A stretch of 64,000 nt of DNA from Patescibacteria group bacterium (GCA_038064895.1 JBBTSA010000002.1:8942-72941); one strand, 5' to 3'. Shown: positions 40,964 through 50,923, counted from the first letter of the stretch. Notes: generated by a model not told the origin, from the letters alone. A program made the numbers and translations.

Positions 40964-40989
40964 TCAAATTTGACATTCTTACTTAGAAT

Positions 40990-43671
40990 GTGAGTAAGAT
41001 TATATTAATGAGTAAAATCCGTCTGCTGCTCATACTTATTGTTGTAGCTGTAATCTCCATTATTGCCTCAATGTATATTAAACCTATAAAGCAGCCTGGA
41101 CAACATCCAGTAACGCACGACACCGTTCTTTTTGACACAAGCAGCAAACAAGCTATTGCCCAAGGCGATAAGCTTACAGGAAAGGGCATTCCAAATGGAA
41201 AGGTCACACTCATTATCAGTCCGGGCGGGGTACAAAAAGATCTTACTGTCGATGCAAATGGTGACTGGTTTTATCAAATCGAACAACCATTGCAAGCAAA
41301 AAAGTATAGACTTAGCGTTCTTACCTATGATGTAGTAGGAACACTGGTAAATATAAAAAGTTTTCCTATAGAAATTACCTCTCCTACGAGTTCTTTATTT
41401 CTGCCAGAAGCGAAAGCACAAGAAGAAGGCCCCACGTATACACTCTTGCGTGATCACTATCCTGACTACGATGAGCATTATAAGGATTGGGAAAAGCGAA
41501 TGCGCAAGATTCAAATTTACCCGGTTTGGGACGAAGCAGTAGGAGAAACTGTCTTTTTAAATACAGAAACCTTTCTCGATAGCAATGTTTGCAGAACACA
41601 AGACTGTGCTATCGATGCTCGGCAAATGTCAGAGGTTGAATTGGCAGACGAGTTGACAAATGTATTTGTCGAATATGTCCAGGCCCTTGGAGATGTCATG
41701 CTTGAGCAGTGTTATGTACCATTTGTGGCATTGGAACAACACTTTCCGGATATAGAGCTCTTCCGGCAATATCCGAGTTTAAGCCACTACTTTGATGAAG
41801 GTCAATTACGTGGTCAGTGTATTACGCAAATAAAAAGAGATATTGAGGTAGCTGATCTCGAGAATATTATCGAAAGTGAACGGACTGCCGACTTTTTTAC
41901 GCAAAAACTCAACGAGCGGGGGCTTAATGAAGCAAGAGATCCAGTAATAAGGGCATTTATCGGACTGGATGGTTTACTGAATACGCATCTTGTCCTTAAA
42001 TTTATTGCTCAAAATGATGGATATAGGCTCTCGGATGACGATAAGGTAGATTTGGCACTTGCGCTTTTTGATTTTATTCCGTTTAACCCACTTAAATTTG
42101 CAGCAATTGTTGATGCGGATGTCGAAGAAAACCCTTTTGTTCCCAGTGCTTATGCAAAACACCAAAATCTCCAGAAGATAGTGAGAGGAAGTTATTCAGT
42201 AAATCCTCAACAAGCTGCTGCGAACGCCAGAACAGTAAGGAACACAGTGCAACGACGAGGAACTGTATCACAGTCAGTAGCCAATGCTGCCATTAACACC
42301 TTTGATAGTATACGAAGAACAATACCTCCAAGGGGAAAAGCAGGTGCTAAAAATATTGGATATCACTCTAGCAACGACGGCTTTCCAACTCAAGATTGGT
42401 ATTTTAAAGATGGAGCAAATAGAAAAGGATCGGTATTTGATGGAGTATCAACTGGCGATGGAGGACCAGCAGCCCGCTTAGCCAGCAGCACAATAGAGCA
42501 AAAAATCGCGGGGATACCTGACGTTGTATCCTATGATCAGTTAGACCAGGTAGCAAACATACTTCGTGACGCCTACAACAGTGCGCATAGACAAGTTCGA
42601 ACTCTAGGCGGTCGTCGATTGACAACTGCAGTCACAAGTGTGATAGTTGATACGGATCAAGGACCTCATGCTATTATTGCCAATGTTGGAGACGCGCGGG
42701 CCTATCTGTACAGAGAGGGTAGATTACAACAATTGAGCCGAGATGATAGGGGAGCAGCAGAGCATATTGTCACCCAAACGTTGGGCCAATCTGGCACTCC
42801 GAATGTTCACATACATCGAACGTCGCTTCAACCAGAAGATAGAATTGTTCTTATGTCAGATGGGATTTTTGACGATAATCCTCTCGATGAGCTTGAAGCG
42901 GTTCTACGTTCTACAGATGCTAATAAAGGCGATTTAGCAGAAGCACTTACAAGAATTGCTAGAAAATCAGATGATAAGACAGCAGTTGTTTTGGAAGTAT
43001 ACCCTTCAAGAACAACTGGTAATCTTCATACGGTCGTTCCGAAACGTTCTGCAGCTCCATCTCTTGCTGCAGGAGCAGCTGTCAGTGTCATTACACTTGG
43101 TTTGTTAAGCACCAGCGTTTCTTCTGTTGGTCCCACAAATCCTTCAATACCAGCTACGCCGACTGTTACTGTCCCCATCCCAAATCAAATAACTATCCAT
43201 GAGGTTAATGGGCAATTTGTGCCAGGAGGAAGAATTGTAGCTTCGACATTTCTTTCAAAAGATGGAACAGTATTAAGTCATGCGAATTATAATTTTGTAT
43301 GGGGGATAGATCAACCAAAAGATAAGACCACAACGGCAGAAATTAGTCCTCTTCCCGAAGTCAGTTGTAGCAGGGATTCTTGCACCATGAAACTCCCGCA
43401 AGACGTGCGCCCTGGCAAACATAGTCTTGTAGTGTATGTGACGCAAAGAAATGACAGTAAGGTTTTGGCTGCTAGTTCTAAGGATATTACCATAGGAAGT
43501 ACCTCACAAACTTCTGCTTGTCCTGAAACCTTCTTTCGATGTGGGGGGAAACCTGGCTATGAAACCTATGAACGACATCACAGAATCTATGTTGAACCAA
43601 TTTGTACTGGCAGTGATGTTACTTTGAGAAAAGAAGATTTAGGAGAAGATAGGACAGATTGTCCGCAATAA
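40990..43671 (+). CDS. Large membrane-anchored protein with Ig-like domain, PP2C-family Ser/Thr phosphatase domain and Cys-rich C-terminal tail
   Basis: 893 aa. N-terminal TM LLLILIVVAVISIIASMYI. PP2C motifs VFDGVSTGDGGPAARLAS, AIIANVGDARAYLYREGRLQQLSRDD, DRIVLMSDGIFDD and DDKTAVVLEV. Second hydrophobic stretch AAPSLAAGAAVSVITLGLL. C-terminal CPETFFRCGG...CTGS...DCPQ. Confidence 0.65.
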   Translation: MSKIILMSKIRLLLILIVVAVISIIASMYIKPIKQPGQHPVTHDTVLFDTSSKQAIAQGDKLTGKGIPNGKVTLIISPGGVQKDLTVDANGDWFYQIEQPLQAKKYRLSVLTYDVVGTLVNIKSFPIEITSPTSSLFLPEAKAQEEGPTYTLLRDHYPDYDEHYKDWEKRMRKIQIYPVWDEAVGETVFLNTETFLDSNVCRTQDCAIDARQMSEVELADELTNVFVEYVQALGDVMLEQCYVPFVALEQHFPDIELFRQYPSLSHYFDEGQLRGQCITQIKRDIEVADLENIIESERTADFFTQKLNERGLNEARDPVIRAFIGLDGLLNTHLVLKFIAQNDGYRLSDDDKVDLALALFDFIPFNPLKFAAIVDADVEENPFVPSAYAKHQNLQKIVRGSYSVNPQQAAANARTVRNTVQRRGTVSQSVANAAINTFDSIRRTIPPRGKAGAKNIGYHSSNDGFPTQDWYFKDGANRKGSVFDGVSTGDGGPAARLASSTIEQKIAGIPDVVSYDQLDQVANILRDAYNSAHRQVRTLGGRRLTTAVTSVIVDTDQGPHAIIANVGDARAYLYREGRLQQLSRDDRGAAEHIVTQTLGQSGTPNVHIHRTSLQPEDRIVLMSDGIFDDNPLDELEAVLRSTDANKGDLAEALTRIARKSDDKTAVVLEVYPSRTTGNLHTVVPKRSAAPSLAAGAAVSVITLGLLSTSVSSVGPTNPSIPATPTVTVPIPNQITIHEVNGQFVPGGRIVASTFLSKDGTVLSHANYNFVWGIDQPKDKTTTAEISPLPEVSCSRDSCTMKLPQDVRPGKHSLVVYVTQRNDSKVLAASSKDITIGSTSQTSACPETFFRCGGKPGYETYERHHRIYVEPICTGSDVTLRKEDLGEDRTDCPQ

Positions 43672-50663: not shown

Positions 50664-50923
50664 AAGAATATATTAAAAATTTAAGGATCAGCAAAAAACA
50701 AGCTATTATTACTTTGATTCTGCTTTTGGGTATTGTCTTTGGTGTGATTTTAGTGCAAAAACCCCAGATTTTTAAAGGAAGGGCAGATGTTGATATATCT
50801 TCTGCTCTAAATATCCAAGGAACAGGTGGTGAGGCGGTTAAGTGTGTACAACAGACCTGTACTACCAAAGCAGAAGAAGTAACTATTGAAGTCAAAGATC
50901 CTGATATATTCCTTAAGGATTAA
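50651..50923 (+). CDS. Small single-pass membrane protein, paralogue of 46014-46256
   Basis: 90 aa. ...GIVFGVILVQKPQIFKGRADV then a Cys pair (KCVQQTC). Overlaps the end of the giant gene by 13 nt. Confidence 0.55.
   Translation: MYTMKEYIKNLRISKKQAIITLILLLGIVFGVILVQKPQIFKGRADVDISSALNIQGTGGEAVKCVQQTCTTKAEEVTIEVKDPDIFLKD

What the first reader, a model, noticed from the sequence alone, without database searches (positions are those of the whole stretch)
40964..50923. Two tandem cassettes: giant surface/secreted proteins with a shared Cys-rich C-terminal tail, each closed by an overlapping homologous small membrane protein
Seen in sequence. Cassette 1 has three genes:
- 40990-43671: an 893-aa membrane-anchored protein with an Ig-like domain and a complete PP2C phosphatase domain.
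- 43675-46017: a 780-aa secreted protein.
- 46014-46256: an 80-aa single-pass membrane protein.

Cassette 2 also has three genes:
- 47689-48186: a 165-aa anchored protein.
- 48183-50663: an 826-aa secreted HEXXH/Ig-like protein.
- 50651-50923: a 90-aa single-pass membrane protein.

The two small proteins are clearly homologous, at about 60% identity over the TM and juxtamembrane region (...GVFLVQRQQTLKSKA versus ...GVILVQKPQIFKGRA). Both overlap the stop codon of the preceding giant gene, which indicates translational coupling.

The giant proteins end in similar short Cys-rich modules with the pattern CxxxC...C...EC...C...G(T/D)GC, preceded by Pro/Thr/Glu linkers. The whole region is visibly GC-richer than the core genes, and TA/Abi genes separate the two cassettes.

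A repeated 'large extracytoplasmic effector-like protein + small dedicated membrane partner' unit has no obvious match to a named secretion, sortase or pilus system. It could be a surface-display or host-interaction module of an episymbiotic small-genome bacterium.
Basis: partly seen in the sequence, partly recalled or inferred. Interest (0 to 1): 0.8.

Follow-up and report, generated by a model that had tools for sequence, protein, structure and literature searches.

The report
Giant exoproteins each followed by mini-protein
In this ultra-small (Patescibacteria) bacterium, operons for giant secreted proteins end in a translationally coupled gene for an ~85-residue one-helix protein; that protein belongs to a large undescribed family which in other genomes is fused to the front of such giants, so it is probably a detachable anchoring or accessory subunit, although its function is untested.

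Summary
The two small proteins are homologous, but at 33% identity over 78 aa, not 60%. Both start in an ATGA overlap with the stop codon of the preceding giant gene.

- The three Cys-rich tails are no more alike than shuffled sequence. They are three separate, exchangeable tail types.
- The region as a whole is not GC-rich. Only cassette 1 is slightly raised.
- The small protein is not private to each giant.

The small protein belongs to an undescribed Microgenomates/Patescibacteria family of at least 362 clusters. Members share a TM helix, an L-V-Q-x-x-Q-x-x-K-S-[KR]-A motif and a disulfide-stapled beta-hairpin. They are under purifying selection.

In about 14 of 16 independent gene contexts the small gene sits directly after a large signal-peptide protein. 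The unit of a P4-like anchor, a zincin giant and the mini-protein recurs in three other chromosomal neighbourhoods. The same module is fused N-terminally to other giants, including one clear split-versus-fused pair.

Cassette 1 is an insertion flanked by relic copies of the PBP1A gene's 3' end.

Best reading (about 0.4): a trans-supplied membrane-proximal anchor or accessory subunit. Main rival: a cleaved, secreted mini-peptide. No known secretion, sortase, pilus, prophage or defence system matches.

The parts
38192..40576 (+). Class A penicillin-binding protein (PBP1A-like). This is the conserved left border of the variable island.
   Evidence: Pfam Transgly 1.3e-58 and Transpeptidase 1.4e-22. 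In the relative L002 the orthologue is followed directly by cassette 2.
40529..40575 (+). Copy A of the repeat: the genuine 3' end of the PBP1A gene (...AATKNTITN*).
   Evidence: the repeat finder families D1/D3. The pattern search finds 3 matches where 0 are expected. Sequence read.
40686..40877 (-). 63-aa hypothetical ORF, unverified as a gene, with a hydrophobic C-terminal half (by eye; not in the hydropathy scan), lying between repeat copies A and B.
   Evidence: ORF list. No Pfam or PHROG hit.
40916..40962 (+). Copy B of the repeat: a relic PBP1A 3' end, 85% identical to copy A, still reading AATKNTTTN*. It lies immediately before cassette 1.
40990..43671 (+). P1, 893 aa. Order of features: N-terminal TM helix, weak Ig-like segment, PP2C phosphatase domain (about residues 457-670), a marginal second hydrophobic segment (688-712), and a C-terminal region ending in a type-C Cys tail.
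   Evidence: Pfam PP2C_2 6.4e-11; Big_13 below cut-off. NCBIfam Stp1 2.8e-14. Hydropathy and Cys map. The tail is homologous to the tails of the L024 and L030 giants.
43675..46017 (+). P2, 780 aa, 20 Cys. Classical signal peptide, a body with no known domain, a ~50-aa beta-rich pre-linker segment (652-700), a Pro/Thr/Glu linker, and a type-A Cys tail (736-780).
   Evidence: No Pfam, NCBIfam, PHROG or PDB hit. The body is 42% identical to the L029 protein. The last 32 aa are 78% identical to the tail of the unrelated L002 giant.
46014..46256 (+). S1, an 80-aa LVQ-motif mini-protein. Its start codon forms an ATGA overlap with the P2 stop.
   Evidence: Family membership. AF2 model: helix 10-47 plus hairpin 53-66, pLDDT 78.9. 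dN/dS 0.17-0.25 against orthologues.
46277..46311 (+). Copy C of the repeat: a relic PBP1A 3' end (ATKNTTTN*), 83% identical to copy B, lying 20 nt after the S1 stop. Copies B and C bracket cassette 1.
46328..47597 (-). Toxin-antitoxin / abortive-infection block: AbiEii (46328-46960), DUF6922 (46909-47211), a 58-aa ORF (47249-47425) and a Phd/YefM antitoxin (47373-47597).
   Evidence: Pfam. PADLOC AbiEii.
47689..48186 (+). P4, 165 aa. N-terminal TM anchor with a degenerate leader-like motif (YLFKDQIRSS), then a ~120-aa ectodomain. Its stop forms an ATGA overlap with the P5 start.
   Evidence: Homologues precede P5-like giants in L002 (49% identity), L030 (37%, E 3e-36) and L035 (26%, E 1e-5).
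48183..50663 (+). P5, 826 aa. Classical signal peptide, a zincin-like region with HELGHAFGL...HPC, a middle region, a pre-linker beta segment (719-773), an acidic linker, and a type-B Cys tail (778-826).
   Evidence: Weak Reprolysin hits. HExxH, HPC and other residues are invariant in 4 homologues. 30% identity over 763 aa to the L030 giant, E 4e-64.
50651..50923 (+). S2, an LVQ-motif mini-protein: 90 aa from the ATG at 50651, or 87 aa from the ATG at 50660. The latter start makes an ATGA overlap with the P5 stop and is the start NCBI annotates.
   Evidence: dN/dS 0.24-0.28.
51018..51668 (-). VapC-like PIN toxin and RHH antitoxin, convergent with S2.
   Evidence: Pfam PIN 1.3e-15 and RHH_1 2e-4.
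51775..53476 (.). Right border of the island: an ASCH-domain gene (-), a FabH-like gene (-) and secE (+). The ASCH-secE-nusG order is conserved in relatives directly after the small gene.
   Evidence: Pfam. Synteny in L003, L001 and L029.

Best explanation
The region is a hypervariable surface-protein island between the PBP1A gene and secE of a Microgenomates-type Patescibacterium. Each operon encodes one or two very large exported proteins. Cassette 1 has a PP2C-containing anchored protein plus a protein of unknown fold. Cassette 2 has a small anchored accessory protein plus a zincin-type giant. Each operon ends with a translationally coupled gene for an ~85-aa 'LVQ' mini-protein.

The mini-protein has four parts: a short basic N-terminus inside the cell, one TM helix carrying a small-xxx-small motif, a conserved juxtamembrane L-V-Q-x-x-Q-x-x-K-S-[KR]-A motif, and an extracytoplasmic ~40-aa beta-hairpin stapled by one disulfide. 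It is the free-standing form of a module that many other giant exoproteins of the lineage carry fused at their own N-terminus. In those fused proteins the module is followed by a Pro/Thr stalk.

Proposed mechanism. The giants next to a small gene have only an ordinary cleavable signal peptide and no anchor of their own. Here the module is supplied in trans. It is made in step with the giant through the ATGA restart, inserts N-in/C-out, and acts as the membrane-proximal base or tether (or an obligatory accessory subunit) that holds or matures the giant at the cell surface. It probably contacts the giant's C-terminal region, namely the beta-rich pre-linker segment rather than the exchangeable Cys tail.

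What is shown: the gene structure, the family, selection, gene pairing, the split/fused relationship, modular tail exchange, and the insertion scars. What is inferred: topology, physical interaction and the anchoring role.
For: 1. The family is real and under selection.
- A profile of 7 members finds 362 clusters at 50% identity (125 at E<=1e-10). 138 of the top 150 are 61-108 aa long.
- Sources name Daviesbacteria, Microgenomates and Patescibacteria.
- dN/dS is 0.17-0.28.

2. Gene pairing recurs.
- The small gene lies directly downstream, on the same strand, of a protein of at least 600 aa, or of a giant gene truncated by the contig end, in window x2, L001, L002, L003, L008, L013, L024, L027, L028, L029, L030, L033, L034 and L035.
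- ATGA overlaps occur in window x2, L003 and L024. A 1-nt gap occurs in L034.

3. A three-gene unit is conserved. The unit of P4-like protein, P5-like zincin giant and mini-protein appears in four different chromosomal neighbourhoods. P4 to L030 gives E 3e-36, P5 to L030 gives E 4e-64, and L035 gives E 1e-5 and E 3e-14.

4. There is a split-versus-fused pair. P0150 has the module fused in front of an enzyme domain. In the L033 614-aa protein the same domain (48% identity over 154 aa, E 9e-43) follows a plain signal peptide, and the module is a separate gene 60 nt downstream. Other fused forms are 258-3097 aa long.

5. Distribution is complementary. No giant with a known N-terminus that sits upstream of a small gene carries the module itself.

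6. Topology signals are consistent.
- Ectodomain Cys count is 2 in 126 members, 0 in 40 and never 1, which indicates an intramolecular disulfide outside the cell.
- A small-xxx-small motif is present in 139 of 166 TM helices.
- The AF2 model shows a helix at 10-47 and a hairpin at 53-66.

7. Copies are several and diverged. There are two in this window. In GCA_964489875 there are two at different loci, each beside different giants.

8. There is a hint of covariation. The ectodomain type of the mini-protein tracks the type of the giant's pre-linker beta segment (two classes, 3+3 loci). It does not track the Cys tail, even though the tail lies between them on the DNA.
Against: - No interaction has been shown, and no complex prediction was possible with these tools.
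- Ala is at position -1 by construction of the search pattern (invariant in 36/36 aligned members), with Ser/Thr/Gly at -3 in 85% of 166 members. This looks like a signal-peptidase I site. Cleavage there would free the hairpin from the membrane.
- The same LVQ...KA motif occurs on proteins that also carry C-terminal LPxAG/IPVTG-plus-TM signals, where the N-terminus is expected to be removed.
- A 40-aa ectodomain is very small for a docking platform.
- In Daviesbacteria-type loci the small gene comes first, and the next giant carries its own module.
- The covariation rests on six loci from closely related populations. Common ancestry could explain it.
- Some upstream giants end in dockerins and have cohesin genes nearby, so they already have another docking system.
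Confidence: 0.4

Rival explanations
1. Secreted mini-peptide. The TM helix plus the LVQ...S-[KR]-A motif is an unusually long, lineage-specific Sec signal peptide that signal peptidase I cleaves after the invariant Ala. The product would be a free 40-45-aa disulfide-stapled beta-hairpin peptide. It would act outside the cell as a soluble subunit, cap, inhibitor, pro-peptide-like cofactor or signal for the co-expressed giant. In the fused proteins the hairpin would simply be the mature N-terminus.
For: - Position -1 is Ala (fixed by the search pattern; invariant in 36/36 aligned members) and position -3 is S/T/G in 85% of 166 members.
- The motif also heads proteins that carry C-terminal sortase-like signals.
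- The AF2 pLDDT drops to 64 across residues 31-40, which contain the motif.
- The gene pairing and the split/fused evidence fit this model as well as they fit the anchor model.
Against: - The h-region is long, 18-20 residues. It carries a conserved small-xxx-small motif (139/166), which a disposable signal peptide does not need.
- The cleavage site would lie about 10 residues beyond the hydrophobic core.
- Position -3 is Pro in 12% of members and -2 is Lys/Arg in 90%, both atypical for SPase I sites.
- In fused giants a Pro/Thr stalk follows the hairpin directly, as expected for a membrane-proximal base.
Confidence: 0.3
2. No dedicated partnership. The mini-protein is a generic small envelope protein of Microgenomates. 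It sits in surface-protein islands because those are the genome's variable, co-regulated regions. Adjacency and ATGA overlaps would then reflect compact operons, not function with the giant.
For: - One family serves giants with unrelated bodies: zincin, beta-helix, FN3-rich, dockerin-bearing and unknown.
- In Daviesbacteria-type loci the small gene stands first, after a ~900-nt gene-free stretch.
- These small genomes are gene-dense. P4/P5 in the window and the L035 175-aa/1270-aa pair also overlap as ATGA.
Against: - About 14 of 16 independent contexts place it immediately after a large exoprotein on the same strand. This is a hand count over; no background rate was computed.
- The three-gene unit moves as a block between neighbourhoods.
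- The split/fused pair and the multiple diverged copies per genome argue for operon-specific function.
Confidence: 0.17
3. Polymorphic toxin plus immunity. The exchangeable Cys-rich C-terminal tails would be small disulfide-rich toxins delivered by the giants. The overlapping small membrane protein would be the cognate immunity protein, as in CDI, Rhs or LXG systems.
For: - Tails are swapped between otherwise orthologous bodies. The P5 and L002 giants have the same body but tail B versus tail A. P2 and L029 have the same body but tail A versus tail B.
- A small ORF follows immediately and overlaps.
- The island is mosaic and carries TA modules.
Against: - All small proteins belong to one conserved family, and their type does not follow the tail type.
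- The same module is the N-terminus of exoproteins. That makes no sense for an immunity protein.
- Cys modules also occur internally and repeatedly in the L030 giant.
- No toxin or pre-toxin domain is detected.
- Several upstream giants end in dockerins instead.
Confidence: 0.06
4. Recombination debris. The small ORFs would be leftover 5' ends (leader exons) produced by shuffling of surface-protein genes. The analogy is the expression-site/silent-gene systems of mycoplasmas, driven by the tyrosine recombinases seen in related loci.
For: - Tyrosine recombinase genes lie in or beside the Daviesbacteria-type loci.
- The island is mosaic.
- Cassette 1 is bracketed by relic PBP1A 3' ends.
Against: - Length is uniform (median 88 aa), with a conserved C-terminal hairpin and conserved ends.
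- dN/dS is 0.17-0.28.
- There are 362 clusters.
- No inverted or direct DNA repeats link the small genes to other genes in the window.
- No Pfam integrase domain is found in the six cassette proteins or the nine flanking genes scanned; the rest of the window was not scanned.
Confidence: 0.04

Closest known systems
Cohesin-dockerin anchoring of exoenzymes (cellulosome-type scaffolds)
   Same: - Large secreted multidomain proteins are held at the surface through a short C-terminal module.
- The partner is a small membrane- or wall-anchored protein encoded next door.
- True dockerin-ended giants and TM-anchored cohesin proteins occur in the related Microgenomates loci, sometimes in the same operon as an LVQ mini-protein (L031, L033, L034).
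   Different: - The window's tails give no Dockerin_1 hit, and no duplicated Ca-binding repeat was noticed on reading them.
- The mini-protein's ectodomain is about 40 aa, a hairpin rather than a ~140-aa cohesin sandwich.
- No binding has been shown.
Polymorphic toxin / immunity cassettes (CdiA-CT/CdiI, Rhs, LXG)
   Same: - Giant exported proteins.
- Exchangeable C-terminal ends.
- A small overlapping downstream ORF.
- Mosaic islands.
   Different: - The small ORFs form a single conserved family that does not covary with the tail.
- The same module also occurs fused at the N-terminus of exoproteins.
- No toxin domain is present.
Specialised Gram-positive signal peptides (YSIRK-G/S, KxYKxGKxW)
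   Same: A lineage-restricted, strongly conserved sequence motif within the N-terminal export signal of surface proteins.
   Different: - Here the motif lies after the hydrophobic core rather than before it.
- It is followed by a conserved disulfide hairpin.
- The whole module also exists as hundreds of free-standing ~85-aa genes.
Type IV pilins and pseudopilins
   Same: A short protein with an N-terminal hydrophobic helix continuing into a small beta domain that contains a disulfide loop.
   Different: - There is no prepilin-peptidase site (G|F/M...E5). The residue before the helix is not conserved.
- In the loci inspected the stand-alone small genes lie next to giant exoprotein genes, not next to the pilN/pilO-like cluster seen in L021-L023 and L025.
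- The module is fused to enzymes.
Sortase/LPXTG surface display
   Same: The purpose is the same: retaining exported proteins on a monoderm envelope. LPxAG/IPVTG-plus-TM ends do occur on other proteins of related genomes.
   Different: The window's giants have no LPXTG-like motif, no C-terminal TM segment and no basic tail.

Membership tests
Cohesin-dockerin system | Giant protein carries a dockerin (duplicated Ca-binding F-hand repeat, Pfam PF00404). | tested here: not met
   No Dockerin_1 hit in P1, P2 or P5 at E<=0.1. Dockerins are present in other loci (L033, L034).
Cohesin-dockerin system | Partner protein carries a cohesin beta-sandwich of about 140 aa (PF00963). | tested here: not met
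   S1 and S2 have no Pfam hit. The ectodomain is about 40 aa and is modelled as one hairpin.
Polymorphic toxin-immunity cassette | The C-terminal end is exchanged between otherwise homologous large proteins. | tested here: met
   P5 and the L002 giant share a body but have different tails, as do P2 and L029. P2 and the L002 giant share only the last 32 aa (78% identity, E 3e-15).
Polymorphic toxin-immunity cassette | The downstream small protein covaries with the C-terminal (toxin) type, and the different types are mutually unrelated. | tested here: not met
   All small proteins belong to one family. Their ectodomain type does not follow the tail type.
Polymorphic toxin-immunity cassette | A recognisable toxin or pre-toxin domain is present. 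| tested here: not met
   No Pfam, NCBIfam or PADLOC hit in the tails.
Sortase substrates (LPXTG) | A C-terminal LPXTG-like motif followed by a hydrophobic segment and a basic tail. | tested here: not met
   The C-termini of P1, P2 and P5 were read directly. No C-terminal hydrophobic window is present.
Type IV pilin / pseudopilin | A class III signal peptide: a short basic leader ending in Gly, then F/M and Glu at +5, cleaved by prepilin peptidase. | tested here: not met
   The 36-member alignment shows no conserved Gly-Phe junction and no Glu at +5.
Sec signal peptide cleaved by signal peptidase I | Small residues at positions -1 and -3 after a hydrophobic core. | tested here: met
   Position -1 is Ala (required by the search pattern, which 166 of 196 small members match; invariant in 36/36 aligned members). 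Position -3 is S/T/G in 141 of 166 and Pro in 20.
Sec signal peptide cleaved by signal peptidase I | Actual cleavage and release of the mature part. | not testable with these tools
   This needs N-terminal proteomics or expression experiments. No SignalP-type predictor was available.
PP2C phosphatase (P1) | Match to the PP2C profile above the curated cut-off. | tested here: met
   PF13672: 42.6 bits against a cut-off of 24. PF00481: 33.7 against 20.3.
Zincin metallopeptidase (P5) | An HEXXH zinc-binding motif conserved among homologues. | tested here: met
   H175, E176 and H179 are invariant in the window, L002, L030 and L035 proteins, together with G178, F181, G182, L183 and H192-P193-C194.
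Zincin metallopeptidase (P5) | Match to a curated peptidase family above its cut-off. | tested here: not met
   Reprolysin_5 gives 17.1 bits against a cut-off of 27. The AF2 model is unusable, pLDDT 34.
Prophage or phage structural module / known defence system | Cassette proteins match PHROG or PADLOC families. | tested here: not met
   Only P1's PP2C region hits two PHROGs of unknown function. P2, S1, P4, P5 and S2 have none. PADLOC hits only the intervening AbiEii.

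The most novel reading that the evidence does not exclude
The LVQ mini-protein would be the universal membrane anchor or adaptor of a previously unrecognised surface-display system of Microgenomates/Patescibacteria. It would be an ~85-aa bitopic protein, either fused to giant exoproteins or supplied in trans by translational coupling. It would tether them to the envelope through its disulfide-stapled hairpin. It would be a means of surface retention other than LPXTG/sortase anchoring in the ultra-small bacteria that carry it, and its type would be matched to a beta segment near the giant's C-terminus.
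Probability: 0.25. Interest if true: 0.75.

Novelty: new variant of a known kind. Interest (0 to 1): 0.55.

Why it matters
Patescibacteria are thought to live attached to other cells. How they hold their very large surface proteins on a minimal envelope is largely unknown.

A small-protein family with hundreds of clusters and no Pfam or NCBIfam model is here tied by translational coupling to giant exoproteins, and it is interchangeable between fused and split forms. That gives a concrete, testable handle on surface display in these organisms.

The family also provides three practical things:
- a marker for finding surface-protein islands in metagenomes;
- a defined motif (L-V-Q-x-x-Q-x-x-K-S-[KR]-A) whose processing can be looked for in existing metaproteomes;
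- a worked example of how such islands grow, through insertions that leave relic gene ends and through module swapping.

Tried and rejected
- Direct homology of the three Cys tails was rejected. Shuffle tests give p 0.2-0.8, and MAFFT and BLAST alignments are unconvincing.
- Homology of the P2 and P5 pre-linker segments could not be shown. P5-type and P2-type HMMs do not find each other. An HMM built only from distant instances ranks P5 (E 0.026) and P2 (E 0.095) first and second of 255 window ORFs at the right positions. That is suggestive only.
- The homologue search with full-length P2 returned nothing, not even the protein itself.
- AF2 of P5 without an alignment was unusable (pLDDT 34). 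No fold search was therefore run.
- PDB sequence searches with P2, P5 and the family profile gave nothing meaningful.
- The promoter/terminator scan was uninformative.
- Two literature searches found nothing on this family or on cohesin-dockerin in Microgenomates.
- The first metagenome scan with the 36-member alignment failed because no conserved stretch was available. The second scan mostly returned other proteins that merely share the LVQRQQ motif.
- The prepilin reading, the holin reading (the giants have Sec signal peptides) and a read-through fusion of giant and small ORF (the frames differ) were considered and dropped.

Full report
**1. What is in the sequence**

- P1 (40990-43671, 893 aa) has an N-terminal TM helix and a PP2C domain above Pfam's cut-off. 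Its Ig-like hit is below cut-off.
- P2 (43675-46017, 780 aa) matches nothing in Pfam, NCBIfam, PHROGs or PDB sequences.
- P4 (47689-48186) is a 165-aa protein with an N-terminal anchor.
- P5 (48183-50663, 826 aa) carries HELGHAFGL...HPC. That motif is invariant in four homologues.
- P2 and P5 begin with short classical signal peptides. This rests on inspection and hydropathy.
- S1 (46014-46256) and S2 (50651 or 50660 to 50923) are homologous at 33% identity over 78 aa, E=4e-8.
- Both small genes start inside the giant gene's stop codon as ATGA. P4 and P5 also overlap as ATGA.
- AbiEii, DUF6922 and a Phd antitoxin lie between the cassettes. A PIN/RHH pair follows cassette 2.

- The region is not GC-rich: 0.387 against 0.383 for the window. 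Only cassette 1 (0.407) is marginally above every other 5.3-kb window.
- The three Cys tails are not alike beyond composition.

**2. Organism and setting**

NCBI holds both small proteins as hypothetical proteins of a 'Patescibacteria group bacterium' MAG. The island lies between a PBP1A-type gene and ASCH, a FabH-like gene, secE and nusG. Relatives from several metagenomes show the same borders. Their content differs between the borders:
- a beta-helix protein in L003;
- an FN3-rich HEXXH protein in L001;
- P2-like proteins in L029 and L027;
- in L002, PBP1A followed directly by a cassette-2 homologue.

**3. The small proteins are a large, undescribed family**

Size and distribution:
- A 7-sequence profile finds 362 clusters at 50% identity among 1.84 billion representatives (125 at E<=1e-10).
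- 138 of the top 150 hits are 61-108 aa long. Twelve are the N-termini of proteins of 258-3097 aa.
- Sources name Daviesbacteria and Microgenomates.
- Pfam and NCBIfam have no model for the family.

Shared features:
- a basic N-terminus;
- a TM helix with a small-xxx-small motif (139 of 166);
- the motif L-V-Q-x-x-Q-x-x-K-S-[KR]-A, with -1 Ala (fixed by the search pattern; invariant in the 36-member alignment), -3 S/T/G in 85% and -2 K/R in 90%;
- then about 40 residues with two Cys.

The ectodomain has two Cys in 126 members, none in 40 and never just one. The pair is therefore an intramolecular disulfide, and this part lies outside the cell.

AF2 with 36 sequences gives a helix at 10-47 and a hairpin at 53-66, mean pLDDT 78.9. 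dN/dS between orthologues is 0.17-0.28. These are real genes.

**4. Gene context elsewhere**

The small gene lies immediately downstream, on the same strand, of a large exported protein in window x2, L001, L002, L003, L008, L013, L024, L027, L028, L029, L030, L033, L034 and L035. L003, L024 and both window copies have ATGA overlaps. L034 has a 1-nt gap.

The three-gene unit of cassette 2 recurs in other neighbourhoods.
- L030: 180 + 1048 + 88 aa. P4 is 37% identical (E 3e-36). P5 is 30% identical over 763 aa (E 4e-64).
- L035: 175 + 1270 + 85 aa, with E 1e-5 and E 3e-14.

The exception is a Daviesbacteria-type locus (L009, L015, L016, L031, L032). There the small gene stands first. Giants that carry the module themselves follow it, and then come cohesin genes and a tyrosine recombinase.

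One genome (GCA_964489875) has both kinds of locus.

**5. Split and fused forms**

P0150 (258 aa) has the module, a linker and an enzyme domain. The L033 614-aa protein has a plain signal peptide followed by the same domain (48% identity over 154 aa, E 9e-43). In L033 the module is a separate gene 60 nt downstream.

No giant with a known N-terminus upstream of a small gene carries the module itself. In the fused giants whose sequence was read through (L009, L010 and L031) a Pro- or Pro/Thr-rich stalk follows the hairpin.

**6. The giants' C-termini**

There are three tail types, each with clear relatives elsewhere.

| Type | In the window | Relatives |
|---|---|---|
| A | P2 | L002, 78% identity over 32 aa; weakly L035 |
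| B | P5 | L003, L028, L029 |
| C | P1 | L024, L030; shuffle p<2e-4 |

Tails are exchanged between orthologous bodies. Cys modules also occur internally in the L030 giant. They are therefore structural modules, not a terminal sorting signal.

The small protein's ectodomain type follows the giant's pre-linker beta segment type. There are two classes of three loci each. Identity is 44-64% within a class and 18-34% between classes. The ectodomain type does not follow the tail type, although the tail lies between the two on the DNA. This is a hint, not proof. In L002 the exchanged patch seems to run from the tail into the 5' half of the small gene.

**7. Cassette 1 is an insertion**

The last ~47 nt of the PBP1A gene (...AATKNTITN*) recur at 40916-40962 (85% identity) and at 46277-46311 (83% to the second copy). 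Each copy still ends in a stop codon. A pattern search finds 3 matches where 0 are expected.

Copies B and C bracket P1-P2-S1 exactly. Copies A and B bracket a 63-aa ORF. Together with the slightly higher GC of cassette 1 and the L002 arrangement, this indicates stepwise accretion of units at the 3' end of the PBP1A gene.

**8. Mechanism**

The best-supported reading (about 0.4) is that the mini-protein is the trans-supplied form of the lineage's N-terminal base module. It would be made in step with the giant and would act as its membrane-proximal tether or accessory subunit.

The main rival (about 0.3) is that S-[KR]-A is a signal-peptidase site and a 40-45-aa hairpin peptide is released.

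Lesser rivals:
- generic envelope protein with no dedicated partner (0.17);
- toxin/immunity (0.06);
- recombination debris (0.04).

**9. Comparison and novelty**

The logic resembles cohesin-dockerin anchoring, which coexists in related loci. The defining domains of that system are absent here. Polymorphic-toxin, sortase and pilin memberships each fail on a tested defining feature. PHROGs and PADLOC give no prophage or defence assignment for the cassettes.

The family and its pairing appear undescribed. No Pfam, NCBIfam or literature record was found. I rate it a new variant of partner-mediated surface display, with interest 0.55.

Noticed in passing
window 40529-40575, 40916-40962, 46277-46311: The 3' end of the PBP1A gene is present three times. 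Copies two and three are relics that still end in a stop codon. They bracket a 63-aa ORF and cassette 1 respectively, which looks like insertion scars from stepwise accretion at this gene end.
   Followed up: partly
L031 5929-7000; L032 6097-7000; L009 6321-7275 (also L015, L016): A ~900-1070-nt gene-free stretch lies between a DUF5656 gene and the small LVQ gene. Its DNA is strongly conserved in three genomes: 72% column identity, with long invariant blocks such as GTGCGTATTTCTTTACCTTTCCCACC. Some of its indels are not multiples of three. It has no Rfam match even at E<=1. It may be an unknown large non-coding RNA or leader. It is absent from the window.
   Followed up: partly
window 40990-43671 (P1): P1 has a topology puzzle. 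There is one strong N-terminal TM helix and only a marginal second hydrophobic segment (688-712). The PP2C domain therefore lies on the same side as the Ig-like segment. Either this PP2C phosphatase is extracytoplasmic or the C-terminal Cys-rich part is cytoplasmic.
   Followed up: no
L011, L014, L017, L018, L021, L023, L026 (e.g. L021 8717-9286; L017 1013-1639): Related Patescibacteria proteins end in LPDAG, LPAAG or IPVTG followed by a hydrophobic segment, which looks like a sortase signal. Several sit beside pilN/pilO-like genes. In L017, L018 and L026 the same protein carries the N-terminal LVQRQQ...KA motif; in L011, L014, L021 and L023 the motif is on the adjacent protein.
   Followed up: no
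L031 11763-13174; L034 240-3934; L010 9601-12626; L033 11831-14249: Genuine cohesin and dockerin genes occur in Microgenomates surface-protein loci, including TM-anchored ~200-aa cohesin proteins. A XerC/D-like tyrosine recombinase gene is next to several of them.
   Followed up: partly
L008 and L010 (records CAZWTE010000040.1 and CAYLXC010000020.1): Contigs labelled 'uncultured Gammaproteobacteria' carry typical Microgenomates genes: the LVQ mini-protein in L008, an LVQ-leader giant in L010 together with a membrane protein (6002-6703) resembling the DUF5656 gene of L009 and L031, and dockerin-ended giants in both. They are probably mis-binned or mislabelled.
   Followed up: no
window 46328-47597 and 51018-51668; L001 3959-4806; L028 310-984; L034 6317-6975: Toxin-antitoxin or Abi modules (AbiEii/DUF6922, PIN/RHH, MazE/PIN) recur immediately downstream of the small gene in different genomes. 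In the window the Phd antitoxin has only a 58-aa ORF beside it. That ORF was scanned only against PADLOC, without a hit, so no toxin has been identified.
   Followed up: no
P0041, P0049, P0083, P0086 (fused giants, C-termini): Giants of 1991-3097 aa that carry the N-terminal LVQ module share a conserved extreme C-terminal peptide (...FN(A/G)IFN(A/T)GKKQSLSL...V). It could be another sorting or anchoring signal.
   Followed up: no
window 43675-46017 (P2): The word-indexed homologue search with P2 returned no hit at all, not even the identical MAG protein. It collected 8000 candidates, apparently swamped by low-complexity linker words. Absence of hits for such proteins in that tool is therefore not evidence of absence.
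   Followed up: no
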